Both the position numbers and the translations under genes were made by a program. The notes under the pieces were generated by a model. The model was not told the DNA's origin. It saw nothing but the letters and a program-made list of their open reading frames with translations, and did no database searches. From Phyllobates terribilis (lineage: Eukaryota), in contig NW_027362772.1 of NCBI RefSeq assembly GCF_046119375.1, forward strand, positions 206,336,001 to 206,400,000: DNA of 64,000 nucleotides, written 5' to 3'. Positions 3,401-58,957 of the stretch are shown in pieces. How positions within the stretch are numbered: the first letter of the stretch is position 1; each line of letters begins with the position of its first letter.

Positions 3401-4350
3401 CTAGCAGTCCTGACTACTGCAGCTCAGGGCTCCAGGTGGTGTGGCAGGGACTGGATATAGTACAGAGGGGGCTTTAAAGGTCACAATTTTGTGAACTTCT
3501 AGAGATGTTCAATCTATTTTTTCTGCAATTTTGCTGTCAACCTGGCATTTTAGCAAATATTTATTATACTACCGTATTGCGATGAATTTTGTTTTCCAGC
3601 CTTTAGATTATTATCATTGATGGTTTTCCGTTAATTGCACCAACATCTCTCCAGAAAACTGCTGCTACAATACACAATCCAATATTTTTAGTTTGTCTCG
3701 TATCAATAAATTCCATAAAAGTAGTAGGTAAATACACCATCAGCGCACTTATTTTTTGGCCTGGCATCAAGGAGGCAACGTTTTATTATTTGCACAAAAA
3801 AACTGTAGTAGTTGGACTTTAACTAACACATCAGGCCGCTGTGATATAAGCAGATTCCTATTACCCCTCCTTTTACAAATCACATTTCCCATGGTTGCTC
3901 TCTGGGTGCTGCCTGCAGAATTTTGACAGGTTATAGTTTTTTATGGTGCTGCTCTCTGTTATTACCAAGGGCTCGTTCACACCGATCCAGCTATCCATCT
4001 TTTTTTCCTATGTGGCATTAACACTGATGCAAGAAATTATCCCATAATTTGCTATGGGATCGTTCCCATTCATCTGGAGCATCAGTTGTCGACTTGGACC
4101 CTGTAAGGAGCTGGATCTTAAAAGAAACTTTTTACCAGGTTCTCCCAATATAAAGTATGGCCACCACCTTTACTAACTGTTTACAGCATTCTAGTATGCT
4201 GTATGTGAGTCCCCAATCCCCTCTGCATAGTAAAGAAAAAGACCTTTTATTATCAGATCGTACAGTCCGGTCCGATGGGTGTCTCTGGTCCTAATCGCCT
4301 CCTCTTTTTCCTCAATGGCCATCATTTTTTTCTGTTTCATGTGGATGATA

Positions 4351-5578
4351 TGTAGCACCCTGAGGATTCGGCTGCTACAGGAGTATTGCACCTCAAGCCA
4401 GAGGTGTGATATTCCACTCCCGGGTAAGGATGGAGTGTGGAACTGAGCTCGGTTAGCTGCATGCACTACATACATCCCATTTCCGAGGAGCAGACCGACG
4501 GTACTCCCACTTAGAAATGTGCAGGTACGACCGAGTCTGTTCCTGGCTGGAGTGGGAGGGGGGTGGAACATCCCATGTAGTGTAGGGGCAGATAGGGGGA
4601 GCAGCCTGGGTAAAGATAGGAGCTCATTGGGTGCTGGTCACCTGAGCTCACACATAGAGGGTGTATATAAGGTGGGCACCAACTAAGAACAGGGTCAGAT
4701 GCAGAGAACAAGTCAGATGCAGAGAACAGGTCAGTTGCAGAGAGGAAGTCAGAGAGCAGAGAAGAAAGACCCAGAGCGAGAGAGGAGAAGAGAGAGAGAG
4801 ACCCAGAGGGGGAAACAGCAGAAAAGGACTCCAAGATCCCAACTTAAATCCCCGGGTGAAGAGTCGGCGCAGGGTACCGGAACCCAAGCTGGTGGGGGGG
4901 CAAAACATACCCCAGCCAGAGACCGGAGACCGTGGGCAGCGTTTGCCACGGTCACCCACCACATCCACCCCGAAGGCACACCACATGAAGGGTCAGGGAA
5001 CCCAAGGCCAAGGGTGTCCCAACAGAAGGCCCGAGGGAGCTGGACCTAGGTGGATCACTGGTGGGGACGGCCAGAGAACGGGACAGAAGGAGAGCTCAGG
5101 GCCACGCTCCGGACTTGTTTGGGGGTTGGCTGGATCCAGGACCTGGTGGACGCAGCACGGCTCGGGTGGTCACTCGAAGCTGGAGTGACCAGTACAACAT
5201 CTGCAGTAAGTAAACACCCTTAACTGCACAACCCGACTCTGTCTTCATTGCCGTCTGCACTGCACCACCACAACCCCCATCCTCTGCACCTGTCCCCCCT
5301 GAGGCTATACCCCTCCCGTTGGGGGTTATCCCACCAAGCTGCGCACCCACCATCAGCCTCAGCGGACCCTGCTGCAGCGGCGGCCACAGTGACCGCATCA
5401 CAACGGGTGGCGTAGTCGACACAAAAGAACTCTTAATAACATCTGTAGGACTGCCACAATACAACTGAGTTTGACACCCTGGGCACGGACCGGGTCACAG
5501 CCACTCGGAAGACTACAACTCCCATCTGATCCGGCTCCGGATATTCCCCCTAAAGAATATGGCCCAGGGGGCGCGTCA
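4351..5578 (+). repeat. 5' LTR of element 1
   Basis: Direct repeat of 8097-9326 (offset 3746). TATA-like TATATAA at 4664-4670 and AGTAAA poly(A)-signal variant at 5209-5214. Confidence 0.93.
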
Positions 5579-5582
5579 ACTT

Positions 5583-5600
5583 TGGCGTAGTCGGCAGGAT
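5583..5600 (+). promoter_or_regulatory. Primer-binding site complementary to tRNA-Ser(AGA/UGA)
   Basis: TGGCGTAGTCGGCAGGAT is the reverse complement of the vertebrate tRNA-Ser 3' end ...ATCCTGCCGACTACGCCA (from memory). It lies 4 nt after the LTR end. Confidence 0.88.
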
Positions 5601-5837
5601 TACGTGCCCGCAACACCCGGGTACTGCGTGCCTGAAGAAAAGTGCAAGTTTACCTCAGAAAGAAGTCTCCCGCCGGTTCCGGAGGGTCCACGCCATCGGA
5701 CCCCATCACAGATCGTTTCCCGCCGATTGTTCGCCATTTCCAGCTTGTTCCCGCCATCTGCAGAGTTTCCCGCCACTGGGCGACGCTTCCCGCCAAATCC
5801 GAAGATTTCCCGCCTTGGAAGAGCAGCGGACGCCATT

Positions 5838-7613
5838 ATGGGCGTGCCAAAGGAGGGCAAGAGGCCGCCTCCCATCGTGGGCCAGGACAGAAAATGGCGC
5901 CAAAAGTGGAAACCGCCCCCACCAACAGAGACTGTGATGCTGGAGGTGTCTGTCAGCGTGAAAGAACTACCCCTGGAGCTGACAGTCACCGAGTTGCCCC
6001 GGGACCGCCCTCGAAGTGGGAGGAGACGAAAGAAAAGAACGAAGATGGGTGCCGCCTGGAGCAGTCTGGAGCGAGCGCACCCGGAGGCAAGAAGCCTGGA
6101 GAGGAGTCTGGAGAGAGCTTACCCGGAGATGGAGAGAAAGCAGAGCAGCACCGGCCCGCTGGCCAGGAGCCTGCTGGAAGAAGAGCAGAGCAGCACCGAC
6201 CCGTTGGTCAGGAGCCTGCTAGACACCACGACCCCACTAGGCCTAGTGGAGGTCCTTGCACAGCTCCCCCGAGACCGGGAGTGTGCACAGACTGCCCTGG
6301 AGGGCCTCGCACGGAGGATGGCCCGGGTACAGCGCGAGATATTGGCGGAATGGAGCCGGGAGATGGCCCAGCAAGCTGAGACCAGTCAACGGAGCACACT
6401 ACCCTGGAAGAGGAAACAGACCGCCTCTGAGGATGGCGCGGGAGGACCAAAGGCCGGAGACGGCGCCGAGAAGGGAGCCGGACGCAAGGAGGCAGGTAAA
6501 GGGGACGCCTATACCCCAAGCCGGGAAACCGCCCACCTGCCCCAGCTCCCCGTCGCAGAGCCCGAAAGTCCCCCTGCTGTGCCCGTAGCCGCCATGTCAC
6601 CGCTATGGACTAGGCCCCGACCGGAAGCCGCCGCAGCGACCCCTGTGACGTCACGCGCCTCGACCCGGAGCGTGACAAAGCAGGAAATACCACCAGCCTG
6701 GTCGCAAGGCCTAGTACCCCCGGGCGCCGCATCACCAACAGCGCCCCCTACCTCCGCGGAGCCTCCGGCCTGGTCGCAAGGCCAGGTAGCCCAGGGCGCC
6801 GCCGTATTAACGGTGCCCTTCACCTTCCAGGTGCCCCAGGCCTGGCCGCAAGGCCTGGGCAACCCGGGCGCCACCACCACCGCGCCCGCGCCCGTAAAAC
6901 CAAGGGTGCCACACCTGGGGGAGGACTTGTTCAGCCAGCTCACATGGCCGGACGGGCGGCCCTTCATCTGGCCCGAAGAATTCCATGAGCTGGAACGGCA
7001 GCAGAGACTAGGGCCCTTGTGTGAGCCCCTGATTCCGGCTCCGAAGCCCGTGGCACGGGTCTCGCCTCCTCTGGAAGAAGCCCAATTTGAGTGGGACCCC
7101 ACCGGAGAAGACCTAATGGGGTTCACTCAGGAAACCAGGGCAGCTGCAGCGGAGCGTGCTGAGTGTTGCCGACAGCAGCTCGAAGAGTTTGCGAGGGAGC
7201 GGAGAGAGAGGTGGGTCCGGGAACAACAGGCCCAAATAAGGAGCGCCGAGCAGAAGAGCCGAACCAGGAGGGACCCCCGTGCAGCGCACAGTCCCCGTAC
7301 CACCGGGACTGTAATAAAGTTTAACCTGCAGCATGGGTGGGGCTTCATCAGAGACAACAACACCCCCGGCGACGTCTTTGTCACGCGCAGAGACGTGGAG
7401 TCCCATCTGCCGGAGGGGCACAGAGGTCGTGACCTTTATATCGGGGACGAGGTCACCTTTACCCGGCACAAGTGTGCCAAAGGACCTTACGCCCTCCACG
7501 TACACCGCCTGACGGAGGAGGAGTTGCGGTGCGAGGAGGAGGAGCAAGAGGACCCGGACGGGTCTGAAGTTACAACCAGCTACAAGCAAAGAGCAGGAGG
7601 AAGACGCCGTTGA
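5838..7613 (+). CDS. ~591-aa protein: basic/helical N-terminus, Pro/Ala linker, EWDPTGEDLMGF motif with coiled coil, C-terminal cold-shock domain (~7302-7511)
   Basis: The frame is open from 5559 to 7613. TGTVIKFNLQHGWGFIRDNNTPGDVFVTRRDV...RDLYIGDEVTFTRHKCAKGPYALHVHRL matches the CspA/Y-box CSD pattern (RNP1 GxGFI, RNP2 DVFV, terminal KG-x-x-A-x-x-V). The start is placed at the ATG conserved in copy 2 (DAIM). Confidence 0.85.
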   Translation: MGVPKEGKRPPPIVGQDRKWRQKWKPPPPTETVMLEVSVSVKELPLELTVTELPRDRPRSGRRRKKRTKMGAAWSSLERAHPEARSLERSLERAYPEMERKQSSTGPLARSLLEEEQSSTDPLVRSLLDTTTPLGLVEVLAQLPRDRECAQTALEGLARRMARVQREILAEWSREMAQQAETSQRSTLPWKRKQTASEDGAGGPKAGDGAEKGAGRKEAGKGDAYTPSRETAHLPQLPVAEPESPPAVPVAAMSPLWTRPRPEAAAATPVTSRASTRSVTKQEIPPAWSQGLVPPGAASPTAPPTSAEPPAWSQGQVAQGAAVLTVPFTFQVPQAWPQGLGNPGATTTAPAPVKPRVPHLGEDLFSQLTWPDGRPFIWPEEFHELERQQRLGPLCEPLIPAPKPVARVSPPLEEAQFEWDPTGEDLMGFTQETRAAAAERAECCRQQLEEFARERRERWVREQQAQIRSAEQKSRTRRDPRAAHSPRTTGTVIKFNLQHGWGFIRDNNTPGDVFVTRRDVESHLPEGHRGRDLYIGDEVTFTRHKCAKGPYALHVHRLTEEELRCEEEEQEDPDGSEVTTSYKQRAGGRRR

Positions 7614-7736
7614 GTGCGGCAGAGCAGTAGATGTAAATAGTTACCCGACCGGGTACTAAAGAAACTGTTATTGCAAATATAGTCCCCGTTGGGACCAGCT
7701 GATGTGAACTGTTCACCCGTATACCCTTAATCCCAC

Positions 7737-7844
7737 AGGCTGAGGACTGTGAGCAGCCATTCCCTTTCCCTCCTTACCAGGCTGAGGACTGTGAGCAGCC
7801 ATTCCCTTTCCCTCCTTACCTGGCCAAGGACTGAGAGCGGCCAT
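7737..7844 (+). repeat. 3 tandem 42-bp units, each containing a GGCTG-N11-CAGCC-type hairpin
   Basis: GGCTGAGGACTGTGAGCAGCCAT twice plus GGCCAAGGACTGAGAGCGGCCAT; a homologous array is present in element 2. Confidence 0.8.
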
Positions 7845-8060
7845 ATCCCTGTATATAGTTGCGCTTCCTAAAGCGCCCCCTACTGGTTTTACAGGAAAAC
7901 CAGTTTTCCAGAGAGACTGTCGCACTGTACCCGGTCACACGTTGCACAGTGACCGGAGGAGGAGCCAGAGGCGACGAGAAAGTTTTATATATATAATGTT
8001 TTATATATTTTATATGTTTATGAAAAAAAATTTGTATGTTTTGGTGTTATTTATGTCTTA

Positions 8061-8096
8061 CAGCCCGAGGACGTGCTGTGATTTACCAGGGGGGAA
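8061..8096 (+). promoter_or_regulatory. Conserved pre-PPT block and polypurine tract
   Basis: CAGCCCGAGGACGTGCTGTGATTTACCAGGGGGGAA abuts the 3' LTR and is 35/36 identical to 43709-43744 in element 2. Confidence 0.85.
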
Positions 8097-9326
8097 TGTA
8101 GCACCCTGAGGATTCGGCTGCTACAGGAGTATTGCACCTCAAGCCAGAGGTGTGATATTCCACTCCCGGGTAAGGATGGAGTGTGGAACTGAGCTCGGTT
8201 AGCTGCATGCACTACATACATCCCATTTCCGAGGAGCAGACCGACGGTACTCCCACTTAGAAATGTGCAGGTACGACCGAGTCTGTTCCTGGCTGGAGTG
8301 GGAGGGGGGTGGAACATCCCATGTAGTGTAGGGGCAGATAGGGGGAGCAGCCTGGGTAAAGATAGGAGCTCATTGGGTGCTGGTCACCTGAGCTCACACA
8401 TAGAGGGTGTATATAAGGTGGGCACCAACTAAGAACAGGGTCAGATGCAGAGAACAAGTCAGATGCAGAGAACAGGTCAGTTGCAGAGAGGAAGTCAGAG
8501 AGCAGAGAAGAAAGACCCAGAGCGAGAGAGGAGAAGAGAGAGAGAGACCCAGAGGGGGAAACAGCAGAAAAGGACTCCAAGATCCCAACTTAAATCCCCG
8601 GGTGAAGAGTCGGCGCAGGGTACCGGAACCCAAGCTGGTGGGGGGGCAAAACATACCCCAGCCAGAGACCGGAGACCGTGGGCAGCGTTTGCCACGGTCA
8701 CCCACCACATCCACCCCGAAGGCACACCACATGAAGGGTCAGGGAACCCAAGGCCAAGGGTGTCCCAACAGAAGGCCCGAGGGAGCTGGACCTAGGTGGA
8801 TCACTGGTGGGGACGGCCAGAGAACGGGACAGAAGGAGAGCTCAGGGCCACGCTCCGGACTTGTTTGGGGGTTGGCTGGATCCAGGACCTGGTGGACGCA
8901 GCACGGCTCGGGTGGTCACTCGAAGCTGGAGTGACCAGTACAACATCTGCAGTAAGTAAACACCCTTAACTGCACAACCCGACTCTGTCTTCATTGCCGT
9001 CTGCACTGCACCACCACAACCCCCATCCTCTGCACCTGTCCCCTCTGAGGCTATACCCCTCCCGTTGGGGGTTATTCCACCAAGCTGCGCACCCACCATC
9101 AGCCTCAGCGGACCCTGCTGCAGCGGCGGCCACAGTGACCGCATCACAACGGGTGGCGTAGTCGACACAAAAGAACTCTTAATAACATCTGTAGGACTGC
9201 CACATAACACTGAGTTTGACGCCCTGGGCACGGGCCGGGTCACAGCCGCTCGGAGACTACAACCCCCCATCAGATCCGGTGCCGGGTATTCCCCTCAAAA
9301 AGGAATATGTCCCAGGGGGCGCGTCA
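8097..9326 (+). repeat. 3' LTR of element 1
   Basis: Near-identical to 4351-5578 except in the last ~125 bp. Confidence 0.93.
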
Positions 9327-10130
9327 GATACGTCCTACATTATCCACATAGTGTCCCCCAACTGCGTTCCTGTGCAGGTGCACGTCTCTCTGCCTTGCCA
9401 TGGGCAGAGCAAGGTACTGCAGTGCGCATTCGCTGGGAACGGCCACAGGGCGCTGGTAACCCAGAAGTAATGCCAGCACATGCGCACTACAATACTGCAC
9501 TCTGCCATAAGCAAGGCAGAAAGAAGTACGCCTGCGCAGCAGTGTGACGGGGGGACACTGTGTGGATGACGTAGGACTCATCATTCACATAAAGCAGGTC
9601 AGGAGGACGGTGATTGCAACGACAGAGGACGTGGCGGATCAAGATGCCTGCCAAACCGGACCATACTGTATGTAGATATAATTAAAGGTCTTTTTTTTGC
9701 TATGCAGAGGGGATTGAGGACATACATGCAGCTTACTAGAATGCTGTAAAAGAGTGGGTAAAGATGGTGGCCGTATTTTATATTGGAAAAACCTGGTCAC
9801 AGATCCCCTTTAAAGCCTGATGACACATGATGCCGTTTTGTGATCAGCTAAGATACAAATAAATTGATCCAGATGGCACAGAAAAATGTAAATATAGCCT
9901 CAAATCATTTCTGGGCTACTAAAGTTACCTGGTATGTCCTCCCCAGTTTATTACAGGCACATTACAGTACCCACTGTGGTAAAGCGACTTGCTCGGCTCT
10001 CACAGAGGCAGACACAGGACACACGTCTCGGGTTAGCTCCCTGCTGGTTTATTATATGGCATAGATTCCAGCAGCGTTCCACAAAAATAAACAAATCCTC
10101 TCTAGGATAAAGGGAAAACAAAAGATAAAG

Positions 10131-18976: not shown

Positions 18977-21460
18977 TTCTATTAGTCCATCTATACTGAC
19001 CTCCATCAGGTTGCAAATTGAATATAATTTTTTTCTGCATCTAGCTCTGAAAAAATATTTGGCCTTCTAGCAGTGTGTGGGACTTGTTCTATTAGTCCAT
19101 CTATACTGACCTCCATCAGGTTGCAAATTAAAAATAATTTTTTGTCTGCATCTAGCTCTGAAAAAATATTTGGGCTTCTAGCAGTGTGTGGGACTTTCTC
19201 TATTAGTCCATCTACACTGACCTCCATCAGGTTGCAAATTAAAAATAATTTTTTGTCTGCATCTAGCTCTGAAAAAATATTTGGCCTTCTAGCAGTGTGT
19301 GGGACTTTCTCTATTAGTCCATCTATACTGACCTCCATCAGGTTGCAAACTGAATATATTTTTTTTCTGCATCTACCTCTGAAAAAATATTTGGGCTTCT
19401 AGCTGTGTGTGGGACTTGTTCTATTAGTCCATCTATACTGACCTCCATCAGGTTGCAAACTAAATATAATTTTTTTCTGCATCTAGCTCTGAAAAAATAT
19501 TTGGCCTTCTAGCAGTCTGTGGGACTTTCTCTATTAGTCCATCTATACTGACCTCCATCAGGTTGCAAATTAAAAATAATTTTTATCTGCATCTAGCTCT
19601 GAAAAAATATTTGGCCTTCTAGCAGTGTGTGGGACTTTCTCTATTAGTCCATCTATACTGACCTCCATCATATTGCAAATTAAAAATAATTTTTATCTGC
19701 ATCTACCTCTGAAAAAATATTTGGGCTTCTAGCTGTGTGTGGGACTTGTTCTATTAGTCCATCTATACTGACCTCCATCAGGTTGCAAACTGAATATAAT
19801 TTTTTTCTGCATCTAGCTCTGAAAAAATATTTGGCCTTCTAGCAGTGTGTGGGACTTTCTCTATTAGTCCATCTATACTGACCTCCATCAGGTTGCAAAT
19901 TAAAAATAATTTTTTGTCTGCATCTAGCTCTGAAAAAATATTTGGCCTTCTAGCTGTGTGTGGGACTTTCTCTATTAGTCCATCTATACTGACCTCCATC
20001 AGGCTGCAAATTAAAAATATTTTTTATCTGCATCTACCTCTGAAAAAATATTTGGCCTTCTAGCTGTGTGTGGGACTTGTTCTATTAGTCCATCTATACT
20101 GACCTCCATCAGGTTTCAAATTAAAAATAATTTTTATCTGCATCTACCTCTGAAAAATATTTGGCCTTCTAGCTGTGTGTGGGACTTTCTCTATTAGTCC
20201 ATCTATACTGACCTCCATCAGGCTGCAAATTAAAAATAATTTTTATCTGCATCTACCTCTGAAAAAATATTTGGCCTTCTAGCTGTGTGTGGGACTTGTT
20301 CTATTAGTCCATCTATACTGACCTCCATCAGGTTGCAAACTGAATATAATTTTTTTCTGCATCTAGCTCTGAAAAAATATTTGGCCTTCTAGCAGCGTGT
20401 GGGACTTTCTCTATTAGTTCATCTATACTGACCTCCATCAGGTTGCAAATTAAAAATAATTTATATCTGCATCTAGCTCTGAAAAAATATTTGGCCTTCT
20501 AGCAGTGTGTGGGACTTTATTAGTCCATCTATACTGACCTCCATCAGGTTGCAAATTAAAAATAATTTTTTGTCTGCATCTAGCTCTGAAAAAATATTTG
20601 GCCTTCTAGCAGTGTGTGGGACTTGTTCTATTAATCCATCTATACTGACCTCCATCAGGTTGCAAACTGAATATATTTTTTTTCTGCATCTACCTCTGAA
20701 AAAATATTGGGCTTCTAGCTGTGTGTGGGACTTGTTCTATTAATCGATCTATACAGACCTCCATCAGGTTGCAAACTGAATATAATTTTTTTCTGCATCT
20801 ACCTCTGAAAAAATATTTGGGCTTCTAGCGGTGTGTGGGACTTGTTCTATTAATCCATCTATACAGACCTCCATCAGGTTGCAAACTGAATATAATTTTT
20901 TTCTGCATCTACCTCTGAAAAAATATTTGGGCTTCTAGCTGTGTGTGGGACTTGTTCTATTAGTCCATCTATACTGACCTCCATCAGGTTGCAAACTGAA
21001 TATAATTTTTTTCTGCATCTAGCTCTGAAAAAATATTTGGCCTTCTAGCAGTGTGTGGGACTTTCTCTATTAGTCCATCTATACTGACCTCCATCAGGTT
21101 GCAAATTAAAAATATTTTTTTGTCTGCATCTAGCTCTGAAAAAATATTTGGCCTTCTAGCAGTGTGTGGGACTTTCTCTATTAGTCCATCTATACTGACC
21201 TCCATCAGGTTGCAAACTGAATATATTTTTTTTCTGCATCTACCTCTGAAAAAATATTTGGGCTTCTAGCTGTGTGTAGGACTTGTTCTATTAGTCCATC
21301 TATACTGACCTCCATCAGGTTGCAAACTGAATACAATTTTTTTCTGCATCTACCTCTGAAAAAATATTTGGGCTTCTAGCTGTGTGTGGGACTTGTTCTA
21401 TTAGTCCATCTATACTGACCTCCATCAGGTTGCAAATTGAATATAATTTTTTTCTGCATC
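18977..21460. repeat. Tandem array of ~22 copies of a 110-111-bp unit inside the hAT element
   Basis: ATTAGTCCATCTA recurs at 18981, 19091, 19202, 19313 and onward. Two variant classes (CAAATTAAAAATAAT versus CAAACTGAATAT) are interspersed. Confidence 0.95.
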
Positions 21461-21578
21461 TTACCCAGCCAATAGTTTTGGCCTAATACCACAGTTTGGC
21501 CACTCAGCTCTGCTCGGTTCCCATCCATTGTTTTTTTGTGAAAACAACTCCAGAGTTGTGAATTAGTTAACCACCAAA

Positions 21579-23276
21579 ATGAGTGGAAAAAGGCCTGCTG
21601 CTGGTGGAAAGGGTAATAGGCGTGTTGGGAAGGGGAAAAAAGGTTGTGTCCGTGGGGTAGGTGTTAAAGCAACAGTAACATCTGCAGAAGAAAGACCATC
21701 TTCCAGCCAAACTAAAATGTCTACTTCTTTTAGCGGACAATGTGATAAGATCCCTTTCTTACGGCCACGCCAATTGCTACAAATTCCAGATGAGGCACAA
21801 AAACAGCAGGTGCTTCAACGGATATCAAGTGCTCCTTTAAGTGGGCTCTCCTCCACATCAACTTCAACATCACAAATACTCCAGTCCTCAAAGGTGTCAC
21901 CCCAATCACACTTGCTTCCTCACAGCTCCCAAATCTCCAGCTGCCCGTCTGAGTATGAGGTAGAACAGATGGTTGAGTCTGCAGAGCTGTTTACTTATAC
22001 TATAGCCTGGGAATCAGAGGTCGACTCCAGCGCTTCTGTGAATCCAGACGAGGAAATGATCTGCACTGATGCCCAGAATCTTTATGAGTCGGATTCAGGA
22101 CCAGACGCAGAAGGTTCTGACCATAATGTAGACCCTCATTCCCAAACTGTAACTCCTGTTGGTGGAGACAATGAGGAAGACGATGATGAGACTCAAATAC
22201 CTGATTGGAGCGACAACTTTAGTTTTTTGTCAGGGCAGGAACAGGTTGGCTCTGAGGACGACGGGTGTGATAACGCACAGGGTTATGATGATGAGGTTGG
22301 AGATCCCACTTACTGTCAACCCACAGTCAGCCAAGAGATGAGGTCAGCAGAGGAGGTGGAGGAAGATGCAAGTGACGACGAGGTCAGGTTGCGCCTTCCT
22401 GGACAGAGACGTAGTACTGGAAGCACGTCAACAACTGCATCCTCAAACACAACTCTGCCTCTCACCACAAGTCGTGGTGGCTCTTCAGGTCGCATGGGTG
22501 CTAAGCCTTGCATAGCCTGGGCATTTTTTCAGATCGATAAAGATGACCCAACTCGTGTTATCTGTAACATTTGTCAGCAAAAGCTAAGTAGAGGCCAAAA
22601 AATACATAGTTTGAGTACTTCATGCATGAACCGGCACATGGACATGAAGCATAAGTTGCAGTGGGAAGCTCAGTGTGCTACAATGCGGCCTAGCCGGCAG
22701 GGCCAACCACCGTCTGCCATATCTTGTGCATCCGCGGCCTCTTCATCCTCTGTGACTGAGGGGACAGCAGTCACACCTGTTTTGGGGCGCAGACCTGCCA
22801 CCTCTTTACCCGCAACAGCCAGCGTGATTGGCAGGTCATCATTTTCTTTGGAGGTGGTAACACCAGCTGGTGTTGAGCGCTGTCCGACATCGATAGCACC
22901 ACCTTTGGATCAAGGCAACCTAACATGTCCGCCTGCATCTTCCTCACAGACCGGCAGTTTGCCGGGGACACCCTTATCAACCCCGTCTAAGCACAATAGC
23001 CAGCCCTCGGTCCCTCAGATGTGGACAAGTAAAAGACCATTTCCTCCTAGCCATGAGAAAGCTAAGAGGTTGAATTTCACCATCTGCAAGCTCTTGGCTA
23101 CAGAAATGCTGCCTTTCCGCCTGGTGGACACAGAGGATTTTCGAGACCTTATGTCCGTCGCAGTGCCCCAGTACCAGATGCCCAGTCGGCACTACTTCTC
23201 AAAGAAAGGTGTGCCTGCGCTCCACCAGCATGTCGCACACAACATCACCGCTTCTTTGAGAAACTCTGTGTGTGAC
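21579..23276 (+). pseudogene. hAT transposase, N-terminal half (acidic extension, BED zinc finger), truncated
   Basis: 566 open codons including AWAFF..VICNICQQ..RHMDMKH (BED) and EMLPFRLVDTEDFRDLM..YQMPSRHYFS. It stops at NSVCD and joins Tc1 sequence; the segment with the first catalytic Asp is missing. Confidence 0.9.
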
Positions 23277-23277
23277 A

Positions 23278-24338
23278 CTCCAAAGGTTCTGAATGGGGTA
23301 GAGGTCAGGGGAGCATGGGGGTCACACCATAAGTTTGTCACCTTTTATGCCCATATCAGCCAGAGATGCAGATGTTTTATGTGCAGCATGAGATGGTGCA
23401 TTATCATGCAAAAAAATGATCTTGCTGTGAAATACACGGTTCTTCTTCTTGAACCATGGCAGGAAGTGCTGTTTGAGAAAATCCACATACATTATGGAGT
23501 TCATCTTTAGCGCCTTCAGGGATCCTAAAGGGGCCGACAATCTCTCTCCCCATGATTCCAGCCCAAAACATTACTCCACCTCCTCCTTGTTGGCGCTGTA
23601 GCCGTGTTTGCGTGGGGTGTCCATCAACCAGCCATCCTCCACTCCATCCATCTGGACCATCGAGCGCTGCACGGCACTCATCCGTGAACAAAACAGTTTT
23701 GAAATCAGTCTTCATGTAATGTTTGGCCCACTGGAGCCGTTTCTGCTTGTGTGAAGTGGATAGAGGAGGTCGACAGGATGGCGTATGCACAGCTGCAAAC
23801 CTCTGAAGGACCCTGCATCTTGTTGTTCGGGGGACGTTGGAGGCACCAGCAGCTTCAAAAACTTGTCTGCTGCTATGACAAGGCTTTTTTGCCGCTGCTC
23901 TTTCAACCTGACGTAATTGCCTGTAGGAAAGAGTCCTCAATTTGCCCTTATCAGCACGCACACGTGTGTACTGTGAATCAGCTACATACTTCTTGATTGC
24001 CAAGACACTTCATCCTGATCATCGCACAATGTTGATTGTAGTCATGCCTTGACCTAAACACTCCACAATTTGTTGCTTCTCAGCAGCCGACACATCCTTT
24101 TTCTTTCCCATTTTGGCAGAAAATGTAGGCTGCTTAATAATGTGAGACAGCCTTCTTAAGTAGTCTTGCCTTTCATTGGACACACCTGCCAAACTAATTA
24201 GCACAGGTGTCTGCAATTGCTTACAGTGATATAAAGAGCCCTGACACACATCACCATCAATGAGTTTAACTGACAAACAAACAAATTCTTCCCTTATCAC
24301 TCCTAAACACTTTTTGCATAATAATTTGGAACACAGTG
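23278..24338 (-). mobile_element. Truncated DD37E (TRT-type) Tc1 element, copy 1
   Basis: End CACTGTGTTCCAAATTATTATGCAAA with flanking TA (24339-24340); MGKKKDVSAAEKQQIV; VLFTDEC; GVMFWAGI; FLHDNAPSH..SPDLYPIQ with 37 residues between D and the (E to Q) position; internal stops and frameshifts. Confidence 0.85.
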
Positions 24339-24410
24339 TACATGTGCTTTTCCACAAAACACCAGTGGTTCACGTAGTGAATCTTACAGTTCTAACTTGC
24401 CAACCGTGGT

Positions 24411-26110
24411 CTGTATGGAGTTGTTCAATAAAGGGCCCAAAATTAAGATAACATAGATGGGAGAGGTCTCTATGAATAGGAATTCCTAAGTATTTGATAC
24501 CCTGTGAGGGCCAGGCAAAGGGAAAGTTGGACTGGATGGAATCCTATATGGATTTGGGGAGGGAGACATCGAGGGCCTCAGACTTCGCTGCATTGATTTT
24601 AAAATTTGACCATGTAACAAAGTGATCTATTTCAGCCATAACAGCATGGATGGATATATGTGATTGAGTGATATATACTAGGACATCATCAGCAAATAGA
24701 GAGCACTTGTACTCGGTGCCTCCCACCTCAATCCACCTAATATTGGGGTTATGGCGAATTTATGAGAGCAGGTGCTCCGTCACTAGGATGTATAAGAGAG
24801 GGGACAGAGAACATCCCTGCCTTGTCCCATTGGTGATTGTGAAAGGTGATGAAAATGTTCTGACGCGCCCCCTGGGCCTTGGGACACCCGGAGCCGGACC
24901 CTTTTTGGTGGATGCTGGTGGTTGTAGTCTCCGTGGCGGCGACCCGGTTCGGTGGCTCAGGGCGGTCAAACCAGTGGCGGAACTATTTATGTGGTTTTGA
25001 TGTTTAAATGTCCGACTACGCCTCCCGTGGATTGCGGTCAGAGTGAACCGCCGCTCCAGGGCAGACCGCTGAGGCTGGTGTTGTGGGTGCAGCAGAGCGT
25101 AGCATAACTCCCCACGGGAGGAGTATAGCCTCAGGGCAGTGTATGCGGAGGATGGGGGTGATGGTGCAGGGCAGCAGCAGTAACGACACGGAGTCAGTGA
25201 TGCAGTCCAGGGCCTTTACTCACAGTTCTTATTATCCAGACCACGTCTGCAGGTAACGGCTGCCCACGTCGTACTGTGCTCACCAGGTGAGGGGCTCAGA
25301 CAACTCCCAGATAACTTTGGAGCGCTTCACAGGACCCCCTTTGTGTGTCCTTTGTCTGGCCTTTCTTACCAACCCTTCTGTCCGGCTGCCTCGGGCCTCC
25401 TCTTGGTAAACTTGGCGCCAGTTTCCCTGACTCTATATGGTGCCTTCCTAGCGGGTGTAGCGAGGGGCTGCGCCACATAAAATGTCACAGCCTCCTGTTT
25501 CTAGCTGAGGGTCGTTTCCTGCCTCCACTAGTTTCGGGGACCGGTCTCCCCCTTTGGCCTGACCCCTCCACGCAGGTGGATTCGGGCGTGCGGTGGCGAC
25601 TCGCCCGTCCGCACCCCTGGGATCCCTTCGTTCCTCGTTCCTGGAGCCTTCTCCGCTCCTCTTCCTTCCTTCTCCCTCTTCCAGGCCTGGGCCTCTGTTA
25701 CTAGGCCCGCCTCCGGAGCAGAGCTCATGCAGAGCCCCTGCTCCCTGCCACTTCTGCTCAGACTTCTCTGCACTGAACTAAGATGGTGCCCACCTTTTAT
25801 ACTCCCTTCTCAATGCACCCAGGAACTGCTTCCTCCCTGCTCCTGCACTACAGGGTTCCCCTTCCTCAGTGTTCCCTCCCCCCACTCCAGCCAGGGACAG
25901 GGACTGTCATGCCCATCTCAGGGGCATATTGGTCGCCCTGCCCCACGGCAATGTGGTGTAATGCATGCAGGTGTCGGGTCCTGATCCACACTACATCCTT
26001 ACCTGAGAGTGAGATATCACACCTCTGGGTGAGGTGCAATACCTCTGTAGCAACCGAGCCCTCAGGGTGCTACAGTTCCATTTATCTTCAGCCTAGGTGA
26101 CGTATTGCGA
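24411..26110 (-). mobile_element. L1/Tx1-clade LINE reverse-transcriptase fragment, split by a solo LTR
   Basis: Rejoining across 24861-26078 gives [55 protein letters not shown]. Confidence 0.85.
24861..26074 (-). mobile_element. Solo LTR of a third subfamily of the CSD-element family
   Basis: In element orientation it begins TGTAGCACCCTGAGG and ends GGCCCAGGGGGCGCGTCA, like the element 1 LTRs. 4-bp TSD GTTC (24857-24860 and 26075-26078); TATAAAAGGTGGGCACC and AGTAAA are conserved. Confidence 0.9.
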
Positions 26111-26488
26111 TACAGGGCCGTGATTTTGGCTATAAAAGGGTCCCCTAGACCCCTACCCCAAGCTTTTTAAGAGAATCATATATGGCGTGCCAGGAGACTC
26201 TATGGAATGCTTTCTCAGCATCCAACGAGAGTATCTAATTACAAATTTTTAACTGCATCTAGCCCAGGAAATACTTTGTGCCTAGTAGCAGTGTCTGCTA
26301 GTCAGCGGATTATCCCGGCTGTTAAGCAAGCTACACCACCTGTAGTTTGGACACTTAATTTTTTCAAAGGAAATGCTTCGGGACCACGGGATACTCAGTG
26401 AAGAGCATCAGGAGGCACCCCAAGGCATAGGGGCTGGGACTGGCAGTAGGATGCCTTGCGGTGGACAGCCGAGCTCGATCCTTATAAA

Positions 26489-26610
26489 AGCTTTTTAACT
26501 GCAGCAGCTTTAGTGGACGCTACTGGAGCTGGAATTACGCGGCTGCTGGCATGAGACTTGCCCTCCAATAGATCCTTGTAAATGGATTTAAAGTGTATTC
26601 ATTCAAATTA
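26489..26610 (-). pseudogene. 18S rRNA-derived fragment (~122 bp) embedded in the hAT 3' subterminal region
   Basis: Minus strand TAATTTGAATGAATACACTTTAAATCC..GGAGGGCAAGTCTCATGCCAGCAGCCGCGTAATTCCAGCTCCAGTAGCG..GCTGCAGTTAAAAAGCT aligns with the conserved SSU segment around GTGCCAGCAGCCGCGGTAA, roughly 85-90% by eye. Confidence 0.88.
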
Positions 26611-27116
26611 GAGAGACAATTTAAATTAAAAAGCTTAGAGCTGCCTCCACCACAGGGGGGCTCGCTCGACCCACCAGCGGACAGGCACCAGTATTGGGAG
26701 AGGGGGGCTGGCCGTCAGGGTTCACCGCGGCTCTGGCACAAACCCGGCGACGCGGAGGTGGCATGGGCAGGAGCGGACTGAACGTGTCGGCTTCTCACTT
26801 TTTGGATTTTAGAAGGGCATGACATGCCTATATCTGTGTCTCCCCTTCCTTTTACTCCTCCACCTCTTTTCTTTTCGCATGACTATATGTACTTGTCACT
26901 TTTCCATGTGTTAGTTGTGTCTTCTGAGCAGTTTGTCAGCTTTTGGACACCTTTGAAGGTGTTTTCTATGTGTTTCTATGTGTTTTTGTTTGCCTGCCAT
27001 TGGTTCTAACGGTGTTCGAAGGTGTTCGACGAACAGTTCGACGAACAGTTCGGCGAACACACGGGTGTTCGACGAACTGAACCGAACTCGAACACTACGG
27101 GGGTGGCTCAACACTA

Positions 27117-29109: not shown

Positions 29110-29388
29110 TTAAGCTTTCAAATTACTAATCATGTTTATCTGTATCTTGGCTGGAAAATAATTTGGGCTTTGTAGCAGTGTGCAGCACTGATTCTATTAG
29201 GCCATCTATAATAAGCTCCACCAGATTTAAAATTACTAATCATGTTTATCTGTATCTTGACTGGAAAATAATTTGGGCTTTGTAGCAGTGTGCAGCACTG
29301 ATCCTATTAGGCCATCTATACTAAGCTTCACCAGATTTAAAATTAATAATAATTTTTAGCTGCATCTAGCCCGGAAAATAATTTTGGG
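29110..29388. repeat. ~2.5 copies of a 110-bp unit related to the upstream satellite
   Basis: TAATCATGTTTATC at 29127 and 29237. The shared blocks CTATTAG.CCATCTATA, TGCATCTAGC and ATTTGGGCTT..TAGCAGTGTG also occur in 18977-21460. Confidence 0.8.
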
Positions 29389-30880: not shown

Positions 30881-30952
30881 TACATGTGCTTTTCCACAAA
30901 ACACCAGTGGTTCACGTAGTGAATCTTACAGTTCTAACTTGCCAACCGTGGT

Positions 30953-32652: not shown

Positions 32653-33030
32653 TACAGGGCCGTGATTTTGGCTATGAAAGGGTCACCTAGACCCCTACCC
32701 CAAGCTTTTTAAGAGAATCATATCTGGCGTGCCAGGAGACTCTATGGAATGCTTTCTCAGCATCCAACGAGAGTATCTAATTACAAATTTTTAACTGCAT
32801 CTAGCCCAGGAAATACTTTGTGCCTAGTAGCAGTGTCTGCTAGTCAGCGGATTATCCCGGCTGTTAAGCAAGCTACACCACCTGTAGTTTGGACACTTAA
32901 TTTTTTCAAAGGAAATGCTTCGGGACCACGGGATACTCAGTGAAGAGCATCAGGAGGCACCCCAAGGCATAGGGGCTGGGACTGGCAGTAGGATGCCTTG
33001 CGGTGGACAGCCGAGCTCGATCCTTATAAA

Positions 33031-40808: not shown

Positions 40809-41303
40809 TGTAGCGCCCCGAGGGTTCGGTTGCTACAGGGGTATTGCACCTCAACCAGAGGTGTGATATTCCACTCCCGGGTAAGGATGGAGTATGGACC
40901 AGGGCTCAGTAGCTGCATACACACACTCACCCCATTTCCGGGGGACAGCTCGACGGTGCTCTCATTTAAATGCAGGCACAACTGACCATGTCCCTGGCTA
41001 GAGTTCGGAGGGGGGAGAGAACCCAGTGATGTAGGAGCAGAAGGGGATGGTTTCTGGAGCATAGGAAGGAGCTCATTGGGTGCAGGTCACCTGAGCTCAG
41101 ACACAGAGAGGCAGATAAAAGGTGGGAGCCATCTTTAGAGAGGGGTTCAGTACAGTGGAGAGGTGACAGGGAGCAGAGGCTCTGTAGGACTGCCACAGCA
41201 TTTGGTCTGACCACCCTGAGCCGCGGGATCGGGTTGCCACTACTACCCCCATCATCGCACTGAAGCCCGGTTCCGGGTGCCCCACGGCCCAGGGGGCGAG
41301 TCA
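40809..41303 (+). repeat. 5' LTR of element 2, carrying a 755-bp internal deletion
   Basis: Matches 43745-44125 and 44881-44994; the segment 44126-44880 is absent. Confidence 0.9.
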
Positions 41304-41307
41304 GCTT

Positions 41308-41325
41308 TGGCGTAGTCGGCAGGAT
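41308..41325 (+). promoter_or_regulatory. PBS, tRNA-Ser(AGA/UGA)
   Basis: TGGCGTAGTCGGCAGGAT, identical to the PBS of element 1. Confidence 0.88.
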
Positions 41326-41421
41326 TGTGACCAACCCAACACAAACGGGTATTGCATGCCTGAAAAGAGACTGTTTCACTGTATTGAAAATGGCGCCCGC
41401 CCCAGAAGAACAGACGCCATA

Positions 41422-42940
41422 ATGTGCGCGCCAAAAGATAACAAGAAGCCACCTCCCATCGTGGGCCAGGTCCCAGAATGGCGCCAAAGAAGGAGCCCAC
41501 CCCCAACAGCCATGAGTGCGGCTGTAGAGATGTCCATCAAGGTGGGGGGGCTGCCCCTGAGAGTGATTGTCAGCAGATTGCCCCAGGAGCACCCACAACA
41601 GGGGCGGAAAGAGAAGAAAACCGAGGGGCAGGGTGTGGTTTGGATCAGTCTCGCCAGACCACACCCGGAGATGGAGAGGAGCGTCAACTCCAGCACCCTG
41701 GCAAGCGGCCTGCTGCAGGCCGAGTCTCCATACAGCCTCACGGAGCTGTTGGCTCAGCTCCCCGCAGAAGACCCTGAGTTCTTGCGGACTGCGCTGGAGG
41801 AGCTGGACCGGAGGATGGTCCGAGCGCAGAAGGACGTCATCGCCGGGTGGAAAGAGGAGATGGCCCGGCGGGTCGCGACCCGGCAGCAAGAGACGCTGCC
41901 AGCACCCGGCGGCACGCCTGCCCCCGAGGACGGAGAGAGGAGACCGGAGGCAGAGAACAGCGCTGCCGCGGAGGCAGGTAAGGAAGACACCCCTGCCTCG
42001 GGTCCTGACACCGAAGGCTTACCCCTGGATCCCGCCGTGGAGCCAGAAGTCCTGGGAGCCGCTGCAGCTTCCACGCTCCCACCGCCGGTACGTAGGCCCC
42101 AAGCCGCGAACACCACTGTTGAACCACGCCCCACGTCGTGCCCCCTGACCCCGGAGGCGGTCGGAAGCAGCCCGCTCCAGGCCCGGTCGCAAGGCCTGAC
42201 CACCCCAGGCGCCTCCCAACCGGGTGTGCCCCCGGTCTAGAAACCACCACCCCTGGGCGCGGACCTGTATGCCCAACTGTCTGGTCCAGATGGAGAGCCA
42301 GTCCCCGTACCAGAGGGATGAGTGCACCCCAGTCTGCGGAAAAGCCTGCCCGCGGAGGCCGGAGCTCCTCTGCTTTCACTCCCACCTGACCCACGGCCTG
42401 TTGAAGTTCCCCAGCTCCCGGTGGAGGAGGTCCAATATGAGTGGGACCCGACAGGAGAGGACCTCATGGGGTTCTCGCAGGAGACACGGGCGACCGCAGC
42501 CCGCAGACGGGAGTTCTGTTACCGACAGGTGGCGCAGTTCGAGCGGGAGAAGCGGACACGGCGACAGAGGCAGGAACAGCTGCAGGCCCGAAGCGCGGAG
42601 CTGAAGATGCGCGTCCGGCAAGACCCCCAGGCTGCGCGCGGTCCCAGAATCATCGGGACCGTAGTCAAGTTCCAGCACGACCACGGACACGGATGTGTTC
42701 GTTACCCGGAGAGACGTGGAGAGCCACCTGCCGAAAGGCCACCCGGAACGGGATCTGTCTCCAGGAGACTTGATGTCCTACACCTGACACCGAGGCCTAA
42801 AAGGATGGTATGCCCTTCATGTCCAGAGGATAAGAGAGGAGCAGCACCCCGAACCAGAACCCGGATACCAAGAGGACCCGGACGGGTCTGAAGATCAGTA
42901 TGAGGAGGAGGGAGGAGCAACAGGAGGATACCACTACTAA
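41422..42940 (+). pseudogene. Disrupted homolog of the CSD ORF
   Basis: Collinear with 5838-7613 (PPPIVGQ, LAQLP..TALEEL.RRM, EWDPTGEDLMGF, GTVVKF, DVFVTRRDVESHLP, ALHV, QEDPDGSE). In-frame stops at 42238 and 42319, a frameshifting deletion through RNP1 near 42690, and a stop inside the CSD. Confidence 0.88.
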
Positions 42941-43037
42941 TGAGCAAGTGTGAGTAGTTACCCGACAGGGTACAAGGAACTGTTTTTGTTGCCCCCGTTG
43001 GGACTGTTGCCCGTTCGAAGCTAACCCCCAAGTCACC

Positions 43038-43173
43038 TGGCTGAGGACTGAGAGCAGCCATCCCTCTTCCCCACCTGGCTGAGGACTGAGAGCAGCCATC
43101 CCTCTTCCCCACCTGGCTGAGGACTGAGAGCGGCCATTCCCCTTTCCCATCCGGCCGAGAACTGGGAGCGGCC
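43038..43173 (+). repeat. 4 tandem ~38-bp hairpin units
   Basis: TGGCTG-N11-CAGCCA twice, TGGCTG-N11-CGGCCA, and CGGCCG-N11-CGGCCG. Confidence 0.8.
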
Positions 43174-43744
43174 GACCCCTATGGGTGGTTGCGCTTCTTG
43201 GAGCGCCCCCTATTGGTTTTATAAGGGTACTGCAGCGTCTACCTCTGGACAAAAGCTCATTTGGCGGGGCCGAAAATGTGGTCCAACTACCGGATCACCT
43301 ATGCCCTGCAGCCACGCCCAGGGCCTACGTTGGAAGTTTACGAGCGGGTCCCTCATGTTTGAAAGTTTGCTGAAGTTTTGCACCTTACTGAAAAAAAAAA
43401 ATGGACACCTGGTCGCAAGTTGCACAGTGGCCAGTGAAGAAGAGAATTTACTTAAAAAAATGTCTTACCTGAAAAGTTTTATATGCTGCTAAAAGAGTTA
43501 CATAATAGTGAAAATGTTGTTGGTAAAAGAAGTTCCGGTAATATTAAAAATGCCTTATAATGTCTAGTAAAGAAAAGTGTTGGAAAAGAGAAAGTGTTTC
43601 CCATAAAGGAAATTGCATAATGTCGGCCGTTTTCTAATGTAAAAAAAAAAAAAGTTTGAGAAAGTTTTGCATGTCTTGCATGTTTTTGAATTGTCTTTTG
43701 CTCTGTTCCAGCCCGAGGACGTGCTGTGGTTTACCAGGGGGGAA

Positions 43745-44994
43745 TGTAGCGCCCCGAGGGTTCGGTTGCTACAGGGGTATTGCACCTCAACCAGAGGTGT
43801 GAAATTCCACTCCCGGGTAATGATGGAGTATGGACCAGGGCTCAGTAGCTGCATACACACACTCACCCCATTTCCGGGGGACAGCTCGACGGTGCTCCCA
43901 TTTAAATGCAGGCACAACTGACCATGTCCCTGGCTGGAGTGGGGAGGGGGGAGAGAACTCAGTGATGTAGGAGCAGAAGGGGATGGTTTCTGGAGCATAG
44001 GAAGGAGCTCATTGGGTGCCGGTCACCTGAGCTCAGACACAGAGAGGCAGATAAAAGGTGGGAGCCATCTTTAGAGAGGGGTTCAGTACAGTGGAGAGGT
44101 GACAGGGAGCCGAGGCTTTGTAGGAGCTCTGCCCAGAAGGCAGGCCTGGAGAGAAGGCCGGGGCCAGAGAGGAGAAGAGGAGAAGGAAGGAAAGAGGAGA
44201 GACAGAGGAGTAGAAAGGCTCCAGAAACAAGAAGGCAGAAGGGACCCTAAGAGAGAGCAGAACGGACAGCAACGGTTGCAACCCGCGTTATATCGGGTGA
44301 AGGGTCAGGCTATAGAAAGGTACCGGATTCCCAAGTTGGTGGAGGTAAATTATCCCTCAGCCAAGAACCAGAGGTCGTGATCATCTATTGGTGCGACCCC
44401 CCGCCAAACCTGCTGGGAAGGCACCATATAGGATAGCGGGAAACGGGGGCCAACGTTTGCCCGCAAAGATCCGCGGTAGCTGGACAGAAGTTTGGTCACT
44501 GGTGGGGCACGAGAGGCCAGAGAAAGGACAGAAGGGAGTCCTGCGCCATACTCCTGAATTGCCTGGGGGTTGACCGAGCCCCTTACCTGGTGGACGCAGC
44601 ACGGCTTGGGCAGTCATTGCTGACAGAAGTGACATGGATAACAACTGTGAGTAAAAACCCTGGACTGCATCATTGGACTCTGAGTGATTTCTGCTGCGCC
44701 TGCACCATCACCCCCAGCATCCACCTACATTGCCCTGAGGCTACACTCTTCCCGGTTGGAGTTATCCTATCCCTGTGCTGCCCACCAACACCAGCCTCAG
44801 TGGTCTGCCTTGCAGCGGCGGTCATCCCTGACCGCAATCCACGGGTGGCGTAGTCGGACATTCATAACTCTACAAATAGACTGCCACAGCATTTGGTCTG
44901 ACCACCCTGAGCCGCGGGATCGGGTTGCCACTACTACCCCCATCATCGCACTGAAGCCCGGTTCTGGGTGCCCCACGGCCCAGGGGGCGAGTCA
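43745..44994 (+). repeat. 3' LTR of element 2 (1250 bp)
   Basis: Follows the PPT; contains GATAAAAGGTGGG, AGTAAA and a U5 TGGCGTAGTCGG; ends GGCCCAGGGGGCGAGTCA. Confidence 0.92.
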
Positions 44995-58954: not shown

Positions 58955-58957
58955 GTT

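What the first reader, a model, noticed from the sequence alone, without database searches (positions are those of the whole stretch)
7737..7844. Stem-loop array with compensatory changes downstream of the CSD ORF
Seen: the 3' untranslated tandem units of element 1 (3 copies) and element 2 (4 copies, 43038-43173) all contain a 5-6-bp stem around an 11-nt loop AG(G/A)ACTG(T/A/G)GAG. Stem variants are GGCTG/CAGCC, GGCTG/CGGCC (G-U wobble) and GGCCG/CGGCC (fully compensated); one unit (7822-7842) has a mismatch. Spacer length differs (42 versus 38 bp) while the hairpin is kept. Six of seven loops contain GGACT, which matches the m6A DRACH consensus. Inference: these are multimeric protein-binding sites, either for the element's own CSD protein (cis-recognition) or as a packaging/export signal.
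Basis: partly seen in the sequence, partly recalled or inferred. Interest (0 to 1): 0.72.

Follow-up and report, generated by a model that had tools for sequence, protein, structure and literature searches.

The report
Repeat array in frog retrotransposon tail
Two related jumping genes in what is probably a poison frog carry the same short repeat three or four times near their end; it may be a protein landing site on their RNA, but the base changes that seemed to prove a hairpin can arise from ordinary DNA decay.

Summary
The array is real: 7 units, 3 in element 1 and 4 in element 2, and no others in the window. They lie behind a cold-shock-domain (CSD) ORF in two LTR elements, 68-77% identical, that lack gag and pol. 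The closest protein relatives are from poison frogs. The hairpin claim is weak. There are 5 distinct cores, about two compensated events and two stem breaks. Every variable stem base sits in a CpG; CpG sites change about 5.5 times faster here, and double decay of a paired CpG looks fully compensated in 2 of 4 outcomes. In context the hairpins mostly form with probability 0-0.4, while four single-copy neighbours mostly reach 0.6-1.0. DRACH is not enriched. What holds up is sequence conservation (20 of 21 core bases), G-free C/U linkers, and a place in a conserved hairpin cassette between splice-like sites. Best reading (0.4): a multivalent protein-binding site on unspliced RNA, for export or packaging; if the CSD binds, the linkers are likelier than the loops. 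No further copies or RNA data were obtained. New variant of a known kind; interest 0.35.

The parts
4351..5578 (+). Element 1, 5' LTR (TG...CA); 4-bp target-site duplication at 4347-4350 and 9327-9330
   Evidence: the LTRs differ at 16 of 1226 columns
5583..5601 (+). Primer-binding site, identical in element 2 (41308-41326); tRNA-Ser type is recalled, not tested
5838..7613 (+). Single ORF of 591 aa: basic patch, proline-rich middle, predicted helix, C-terminal CSD; no Gag, RT or integrase match
   Evidence: 87% identical to a Phyllobates terribilis protein over residues 400-591
7302..7505 (+). Cold-shock domain (PF00313), closest to Y-box CSDs by sequence
   Evidence: E 3e-8
6493..6501 (+). 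Splice-donor-like site (CAG|GTAA), orthologous to 41975-41983 in element 2; splicing not shown
   Evidence: 2nd-best donor score in element 1, best in element 2, using a rough recalled matrix
7288..7312 (+). 8-bp hairpin inside the ORF, kept in element 2 (42638-42662) with one two-sided, CpG-type change
   Evidence: pairing probability 0.91-1.0
7550..7565 (+). 6-bp hairpin with a GGAC loop at the ORF end; identical in element 2 (42874-42889), synonymous sites included
7642..7655 (+). 5-bp hairpin with a GAC(C/A) loop; the only difference from element 2 (42959-42972) is in the loop
7682..7695 (+). 5-bp hairpin; one pair broken in element 2
7738..7758 (+). Array unit 1 (5-nt arm, 11-nt purine-rich loop, 5-nt arm)
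7759..7779 (+). Linker 1, 21 nt, no G, 18 pyrimidines
7780..7800 (+). Array unit 2, core identical to unit 1
7801..7821 (+). Linker 2, 21 nt, no G, 19 pyrimidines
7822..7842 (+). Array unit 3 (terminal): C-G at pair 4:18, A.C mismatch at the inner pair
7861..7876 (+). 6-bp hairpin kept in element 2 (43191-43206) with a U-G wobble
   Evidence: probability 0.6-0.99
7931..7956 (+). 8-bp hairpin kept in element 2 (43409-43434): one two-sided and two wobble changes, none breaking; the best-supported structure in the region
8058..8096 (+). Acceptor-like AG (8062-8063; 43710-43711 in element 2), small GAGGAC-loop hairpin and polypurine tract (8088-8096)
8097..9326 (+). Element 1, 3' LTR
40809..44994 (+). 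Element 2: same layout, 4-bp target-site duplication, 5' LTR with an internal deletion, ORF broken by stops and frameshifts including within the CSD
43038..43174 (+). Element 2 array: 4 units at a 38-bp period with 17-nt G-free linkers; two linkers match a DICE-like consensus except for its first base

Best explanation
The array is a repeated cis-acting protein-binding site on the full-length RNA of a non-autonomous Gypsy-type LTR element. It is one module of a cassette of about 550 nt of conserved blocks and small hairpins that runs from the end of the CSD ORF to the polypurine tract. Shown: the repeat, its conservation, the cassette and the element's anatomy. Inferred: (1) the element must borrow Gag-Pol, so its RNA must be selected in trans. 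(2) The cassette lies between a conserved donor-like and a conserved acceptor-like site, so it would mark unspliced RNA only, as export and packaging signals do. (3) Each unit offers a conserved purine 11-mer between weak, interchangeable arms and an unstructured C/U linker. The hairpin would be a minor form that a protein captures, not a stable fold. (4) The element's CSD protein is a candidate ligand, most likely on the linkers, and several copies would give avidity.
For: Majority cores differ at 1 of 21 bases between elements, against 67-77% identity in ORF and LTR (binomial P 0.003-0.02). In the aligned internal region, 22 of 2623 windows reach 20 of 21; the blocks that do are the PBS, the ORF start, the GGAC hairpin and array units 1-2. 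In the 3' region 6 of 11 element-1 hairpins stay intact in element 2, against 1 of 17 and 1 of 5 in the ORF and 3 of 17 in the LTR; broken pairs are 8 against 16.7 expected (P 0.005). All 5 linkers lack G despite changes in length. Splice-like sites are orthologous. The CSD folds as a normal OB barrel (pLDDT 77.9; best match CspA, E 4e-7) and occurs in all 5 frog relatives (two fall below Pfam's cut-off). Precedents: IAP RTE and MusD MTE export elements (PMC12786077 and PMC3362945 passages) and the Gypsy-encoded export protein CERV (PMC10309623 abstract).
Against: Only two elements could be compared. The share of changed pairs that keep pairing is not above the null (0.43 against 0.33, P 0.16). 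That null spreads changes evenly and counts three array units separately, so P 0.005 is generous. Array hairpins have pairing probability 0-0.04 with spans of 80 or more and up to 0.4 with span 40; they reach 0-0.33 in local folding (0.5 for one unit) and stay mostly low with linkers blocked. All stem changes are CpG-type. By alignment with YBX1, two residues of the usual binding face are replaced in the element's CSD (W to K before the first F, H to T after VFV), so its RNA binding may be altered. Element 1 has acceptor-like sites inside its array that element 2 lacks. There are no RNA, splicing or binding data.
Confidence: 0.4

Rival explanations
1. An ordinary tandem repeat with no function of its own. 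A short unit with two GGCC palindromes was duplicated by slippage or template switching in a common ancestor, homogenised within each element, and eroded by CpG decay, which mimics compensation.
For: All changes at the variable stem positions except one transversion (which breaks the outer pair in two units) are C>T or G>A in CpG context. Double decay gives perfect pairs in 2 of 4 outcomes and keeps pairing in 3 of 4. CpG sites differ at 22 of 359 positions against 53 of 4714 elsewhere in recent duplicates; this is inflated because CpG was scored in either copy. Folding z is about 0. Tandem arrays of unknown function are common in the 3' region of plant Gypsy elements (PMC11963269 passages).
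Against: The core is more conserved than the element around it. The linkers stay G-free through indels. The flanking single-copy hairpins are also conserved.
Confidence: 0.25
2. The C/U linkers are the working part: tandem sites for host poly(C)-binding proteins (PCBP, hnRNP K), as in DICE. They would stabilise the RNA and silence its translation, for example to store it in oocytes or move it towards packaging. The cores act as spacers.
For: Two element-2 linkers match the DICE consensus quoted in PMC1475749 except for its first base; only 2 other places in the 64 kb window do. DICE is a tandem 3' UTR repeat that silences translation (PMC9701828 passages). Gypsy RNA is abundant in poison-frog ova (PMC6278860 passages).
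Against: No linker matches the strict consensus. Element-1 linkers and the third element-2 linker do not match even the relaxed one. G-free C-rich runs of 17 nt or more occur 33 times in the window. The core is better conserved than the linker.
Confidence: 0.15
3. The repeat acts as DNA: multiple sites for a transcription factor or zinc-finger protein, with the GGCY/RGCC arms as a dyad.
For: Conservation covers loop and arms alike: 3 loop changes against 6 stem changes over the unit set. The minus strand keeps hairpins about as well as the plus strand. Element 1 has another motif array in its leader.
Against: The array lies among RNA-type signals (polypurine tract, splice-like sites, stable hairpins), far from the LTR promoter. 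No factor was identified.
Confidence: 0.1
4. The array is a dimerisation aid: interchangeable, partly self-complementary arms pair between units and between two RNA copies.
For: Predicted folds pair arms of different units. Both arms of the last element-2 unit are 6-nt palindromes.
Against: It does not explain the conserved loop. Any tandem inverted repeat behaves this way.
Confidence: 0.07
5. The array is a cluster of m6A sites displayed in loops.
For: All 7 loops hold a DRACH. m6A affects retrotransposon RNA (PMC12786077 passages).
Against: DRACH density is close to background, and the loops are mostly not predicted to be open.
Confidence: 0.03

Closest known systems
[quoted passage not shown]
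   Same: Family-specific tandem repeats between the coding region and the 3' LTR; variable copy number; extra ORFs with nucleic-acid-binding potential; function unknown; some elements non-autonomous.
   Different: Here the host is a vertebrate, the ORF is a sense-strand CSD ORF rather than antisense TRP28, there is no gag or pol, the array is short, and the unit is shared between subfamilies about 70% identical.
RNA transport elements RTE (IAP) and MTE (MusD) (PMC12786077, PMC3362945, passages)
   Same: Structured cis elements of LTR elements that let unspliced RNA leave the nucleus.
   Different: Those are single complex folds shown by experiment, in mouse endogenous retroviruses. No sequence likeness was tested beyond Rfam, which gave only 5 weak matches, none over the array.
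CERV of C. elegans Cer1 (PMC10309623, abstract and passages)
   Same: A Gypsy element with its own accessory protein, required to export unspliced genomic RNA.
   Different: CERV comes from a spliced mRNA of an element with gag and pol. The term 'cold shock' does not occur in the paper. No homology was tested.
DICE of 15-lipoxygenase mRNA (PMC1475749, PMC9701828, passages)
   Same: Tandem C/U-rich repeats in a 3' UTR.
   Different: DICE is a tenfold 19-nt repeat without the purine cores; only 2 of 5 linkers here come near its consensus.
Lin28 CSD on the pre-let-7 loop (PMC3424542, abstract and headings)
   Same: A CSD that engages a hairpin loop; one loop here ends in GGAG.
   Different: Specificity there comes from zinc knuckles, which this ORF lacks; its CSD is closer to YBX1 by sequence.

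Membership tests
Non-autonomous LTR retrotransposon | Two LTRs with TG...CA ends, target-site duplication, PBS and PPT | tested here: met
   in both elements
Non-autonomous LTR retrotransposon | No gag-pol of its own | tested here: met
   Only a CSD is found; no likeness to the neighbouring Gag (E 0.64)
Gypsy lineage | RT or integrase phylogeny | not testable with these tools
   The element has no RT. Indirect signs only: 4-bp duplication, similar LTR ends, and 27 of 37 bases shared behind the PBS with the Gypsy element at about 58009 (E 3.7)
Conserved RNA hairpin (covariation standard) | Covariation beyond relatedness and mutation bias | tested here: not met
   24 of 500 shuffles; changes are CpG-type; little power with 5 distinct cores
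Conserved RNA hairpin (covariation standard) | Fold favoured over shuffles and in context | tested here: not met
Conserved RNA hairpin (covariation standard) | Sequence conserved above background | tested here: met
   20 of 21, P 0.003-0.02, post hoc, two elements
Known Rfam family | Match at gathering score | tested here: not met
   5 weak matches in 4300-9400, all far below the gathering score and none over the array
RTE/MTE-type export element | Lies in RNA that retains an intron | tested here: inconclusive
   Orthologous splice-like sites only; no transcript data
RTE/MTE-type export element | Exports unspliced reporter RNA | not testable with these tools
   needs a cell assay
DICE/CURE element | Strict consensus match in tandem | tested here: not met
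   0 of 5 linkers match strictly; 2 of 5 match without the first base
DICE/CURE element | PCBP or hnRNP K binding and silencing | not testable with these tools
   needs a binding assay
m6A cluster | DRACH enrichment | tested here: not met
CSD response element | Intact CSD fold in the encoded protein | tested here: met
   two binding-face residues differ from YBX1
CSD response element | Specific binding of the CSD to the array | not testable with these tools
   no protein-RNA prediction was available

The most novel reading that the evidence does not exclude
Poison-frog LTR elements have captured a Y-box-type cold-shock domain and use it as a Rev/CERV-like factor. The protein would load on a repeated response element in the 3' region of the element's own unspliced RNA and steer it to export or to packaging by a helper Gypsy element. 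That would be an independently evolved protein and response-element pair in a vertebrate retrotransposon.
Probability: 0.15. Interest if true: 0.75.

Novelty: new variant of a known kind. Interest (0 to 1): 0.35.

Why it matters
Tandem arrays in the 3' region of Gypsy elements are common and their function is described as unknown (PMC11963269). Here a short, conserved array sits beside a small RNA-binding domain in a young element, so the question can be tested with one protein and a 140-nt RNA. If the CSD binds the array, it would show how a non-autonomous element marks its RNA for a helper's machinery, in genomes swollen by Gypsy elements (PMC6278860). The analysis also carries a general warning: stems rich in CpG in methylated genomes give compensation-like changes without selection.

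Tried and rejected
More copies were sought without success. No whole genome is held. The unit pattern gave 0 matches in viral contigs and the two-unit pattern 0 in metagenome contigs. The CSD alignment found no confirmed relative in metagenome contigs (262 pattern hits) or viral contigs (125 hits). Prokaryote, phage and plasmid collections were not searched. Sequencing runs: 20 of 24 listed rows hold part of the element, from 6 studies; no RNA holder listed. No reads or contigs were laid, so variation among copies and splicing remain unseen. Protein searches: 1 relative; none among longer proteins, which is weak evidence; 2; and 205 at E 0.001 or better, 150 listed, mostly multi-stretch hits. 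I looked up 9 of them: 5 are from dendrobatoid frogs, 3 carry no name and 1 is a CspA-family protein. The Atlas gave only generic CSD leads below 0.9. Rfam gave nothing over the array. ARAGORN found no tRNA. Earlier findings: four look-ups returned nothing. Rejected: m6A enrichment; the array as a conserved splice acceptor, since the AG is present in only 2 of 7 units; Gag origin of the ORF. GAC in hairpin loops of the 3' region, leaving out the array, is 3 of 10 in element 1 against about 7% elsewhere (P 0.03, post hoc) and is kept as a lead only. No complex prediction was run.

Full report
Setting. The array lies in element 1, an LTR element at 4351-9326 with TG...CA ends, a 4-bp target-site duplication, a 19-nt primer-binding site and a polypurine tract. 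Its LTRs differ at 16 of 1226 columns, so it is young. It holds one ORF of 591 aa whose only Pfam match is a C-terminal cold-shock domain; there is no likeness to the Gag of the Gypsy element at about 58009-64000. Element 2 (40809-44994) has the same layout, 67-69% identity in the ORF, 77% in the LTR and 79% in the aligned 3' region, and a broken ORF. The closest protein is 87% identical and comes from Phyllobates terribilis. Of 9 hits looked up, 5 are from Phyllobates, Ranitomeya and Anomaloglossus, so the host is probably a poison frog (inference). The Gypsy label rests on anatomy only, and the tRNA-Ser label is recalled.

Observation. Periods, loops, stem variants and 6 of 7 GGACT loops are correct.

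Is it a hairpin? The five units folded alone gave the proposed stem but were no more stable than their shuffles (z 0.03 to -1.09), and whole arrays fold otherwise. The all-hairpin fold lies 14-16 kcal/mol above the minimum. In the 3' region the stems form with probability 0-0.04 at spans of 80 or more, and up to 0.4 at span 40. In local folding they reach 0-0.33, and 0.5 for the last unit of element 2. The single-copy hairpins at 7288, 7550, 7861 and 7931 mostly reach 0.6-1.0; exceptions are 0.25-0.46 for the 7550 homologue and 0.37-0.38 for the 7931 homologue in some settings, and the hairpins at 7642 and 7682 range from 0.17 to 0.95. Blocking the linkers rescues only 1 of 7 units fully, because arms of different units pair with each other. 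These are predictions without protein.

Is it compensation? Two pairs show two-sided change. The inner one (4:18) is C-G in the terminal unit of both arrays, which most simply is one inherited event; the U-G unit may be an intermediate or a recombinant (inference). The outer one changes in one unit. Against these stand two breaks. The covariation score was reached by 24 of 500 shuffles, which the tool's own calibration does not treat as significant for related sequences. All five variable stem positions lie in CpG dinucleotides of the last element-2 unit, and all changes but one transversion are C>T or G>A. In a stem a CpG pairs with a CpG, so double decay gives perfect pairs in 2 of 4 outcomes and keeps pairing in 3 of 4. 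CpG sites differ at 22 of 359 positions against 53 of 4714 elsewhere in recent duplicates of this window, an estimate inflated by how CpG was scored. The two-sided changes in the hairpins at 7288 and 7931 are CpG-type too (read). Selection along the G-U route would give the same letters, so the data cannot separate the two; they simply do not show selection. CpG-type changes are only 0-26% of all substitutions in the larger comparisons, so decay is not overwhelming here.

What does stand. The majority cores differ at 1 of 21 bases, P 0.003-0.02 at background identity and 0.06 at 80%, chosen after the fact. The five linkers contain no G although their length differs. The array sits in a cassette: 6 of 11 element-1 hairpins in the 3' region stay intact in element 2, against 2 of 22 in the ORF and 3 of 17 in the LTR. 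Broken pairs are 8 against 16.7 expected (P 0.005), but the share of changed pairs that still pair is not above the null (P 0.16), 2 hairpins were dropped as unaligned, three of the intact ones are array units, and the minus strand scores similarly in one direction (5 of 11). The GGAC-loop hairpin at 7550 has no change over 8 codons, synonymous sites included. A donor-like site in mid-ORF and an acceptor-like site before the polypurine tract are orthologous in both elements; the matrix was rough and recalled, and the element-1 acceptor is not among its top six by pyrimidine count. If these sites are used, the cassette marks unspliced RNA only.

The protein. The CSD is predicted as a normal barrel (pLDDT 77.9) that matches CspA, YBX1/2 and Lin28 structures, and by sequence it is closest to YBX1. 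Two residues of the usual binding face are replaced (their role is partly recalled). Characterised CSDs bind single strands, prefer pyrimidines and have limited specificity (PMC7825780 passages; PMC3424542 abstract and headings). The linkers therefore fit better than the purine loops as CSD sites (inference).

Mechanism. Most likely (0.4) the array is a multivalent protein-binding site on the unspliced RNA that helps export or packaging by a helper element, with the CSD protein as candidate ligand. Rivals are a neutral repeat (0.25), a PCBP/hnRNP K element (0.15; 2 of 5 linkers come near the consensus quoted in PMC1475749), DNA-level sites (0.1), dimerisation (0.07) and m6A (0.03; DRACH density is near background).

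Comparison and novelty. [quoted passage not shown] Export elements are known for IAP and MusD (PMC12786077 and PMC3362945 passages), and an element-encoded export protein for Cer1 (PMC10309623 abstract and passages). The array works at best like these; it fails the covariation, Rfam and strict DICE tests. I found no paper on a CSD-encoding LTR element. 'Cold shock domain' with 'LTR retrotransposon' and 'gypsy' gave 2 papers, and with 'retrotransposon' and 'frog' 3. I read one passage of PMC13583293, which concerns a host gene, and judged the others from the listing. Searches were also judged from listings, apart from passages of PMC6278860. The library lacks most subscription journals and repeat databases, so this is weak evidence of novelty.

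Limits and verdict. No further copy was obtained and no reads were laid, so everything rests on two elements. The repeat is real and probably constrained, the compensation argument fails for now, and function is inferred. New variant of a known kind; interest 0.35. The boldest reading, a Rev-like CSD with its own response element, has probability 0.15 and would deserve 0.75.

Noticed in passing
window 5838-7613; proteins P0001, P0002, P0003, P0008, P0014: A CSD-bearing ORF as the only gene of an LTR element, with diverged relatives (39-46% in the CSD region) in several poison-frog genera. No paper on this was found. It may be more interesting than the array itself.
   Followed up: partly
window 7931-7956 and 43409-43434; 7288-7312 and 42638-42662: Two single-copy 8-bp hairpins keep all pairs between the elements and are predicted to form; they are better structure candidates than the array.
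   Followed up: partly
window 5666-5814: Six TTTCCCGCC-like motifs in the leader of element 1, absent from element 2; the likeness to E2F sites is recalled.
   Followed up: no
window 6690-6860 and 42178-42198: 72-bp repeats inside the ORF carry GGCC-armed hairpins, one at -18.4 kcal/mol; one is kept in element 2.
   Followed up: no
window 5408-5418, 9154-9164, 44846-44857, 25014-25022, 31556-31564: A partial copy of the primer-binding site lies inside the LTRs of all three subfamilies, about 140-170 nt before the LTR end; possibly a relic of an older LTR end.
   Followed up: no
window 24859-26074 and 31401-32616, minus strand: Solo LTRs of a third subfamily, both inside a 3.86-kb segmental duplication (23259-27119 and 29800-33661, 98.4% identical).
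   Followed up: no
window about 58009-64000: Gypsy element with PNMA-like gag, RT, RNase H and integrase, similar LTR ends and a different PBS. A relative could be the helper; its 3' region lies outside the window. A second Gypsy fragment lies on the minus strand at about 54100-58000.
   Followed up: partly
window 40809-41303: The 5' LTR of element 2 lacks about 750 bp relative to its 3' LTR.
   Followed up: no
window 18977-21461, 29116-29384, 21579-23510, 26978-29071: A 110-bp satellite (22.6 copies) beside hAT transposase pieces (zf-BED, dimerisation domain).
   Followed up: no
window 7738 and 7780: In element 1 the first two units follow pyrimidine tracts ending in AG and look like splice acceptors; element 2 lacks the AG.
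   Followed up: partly
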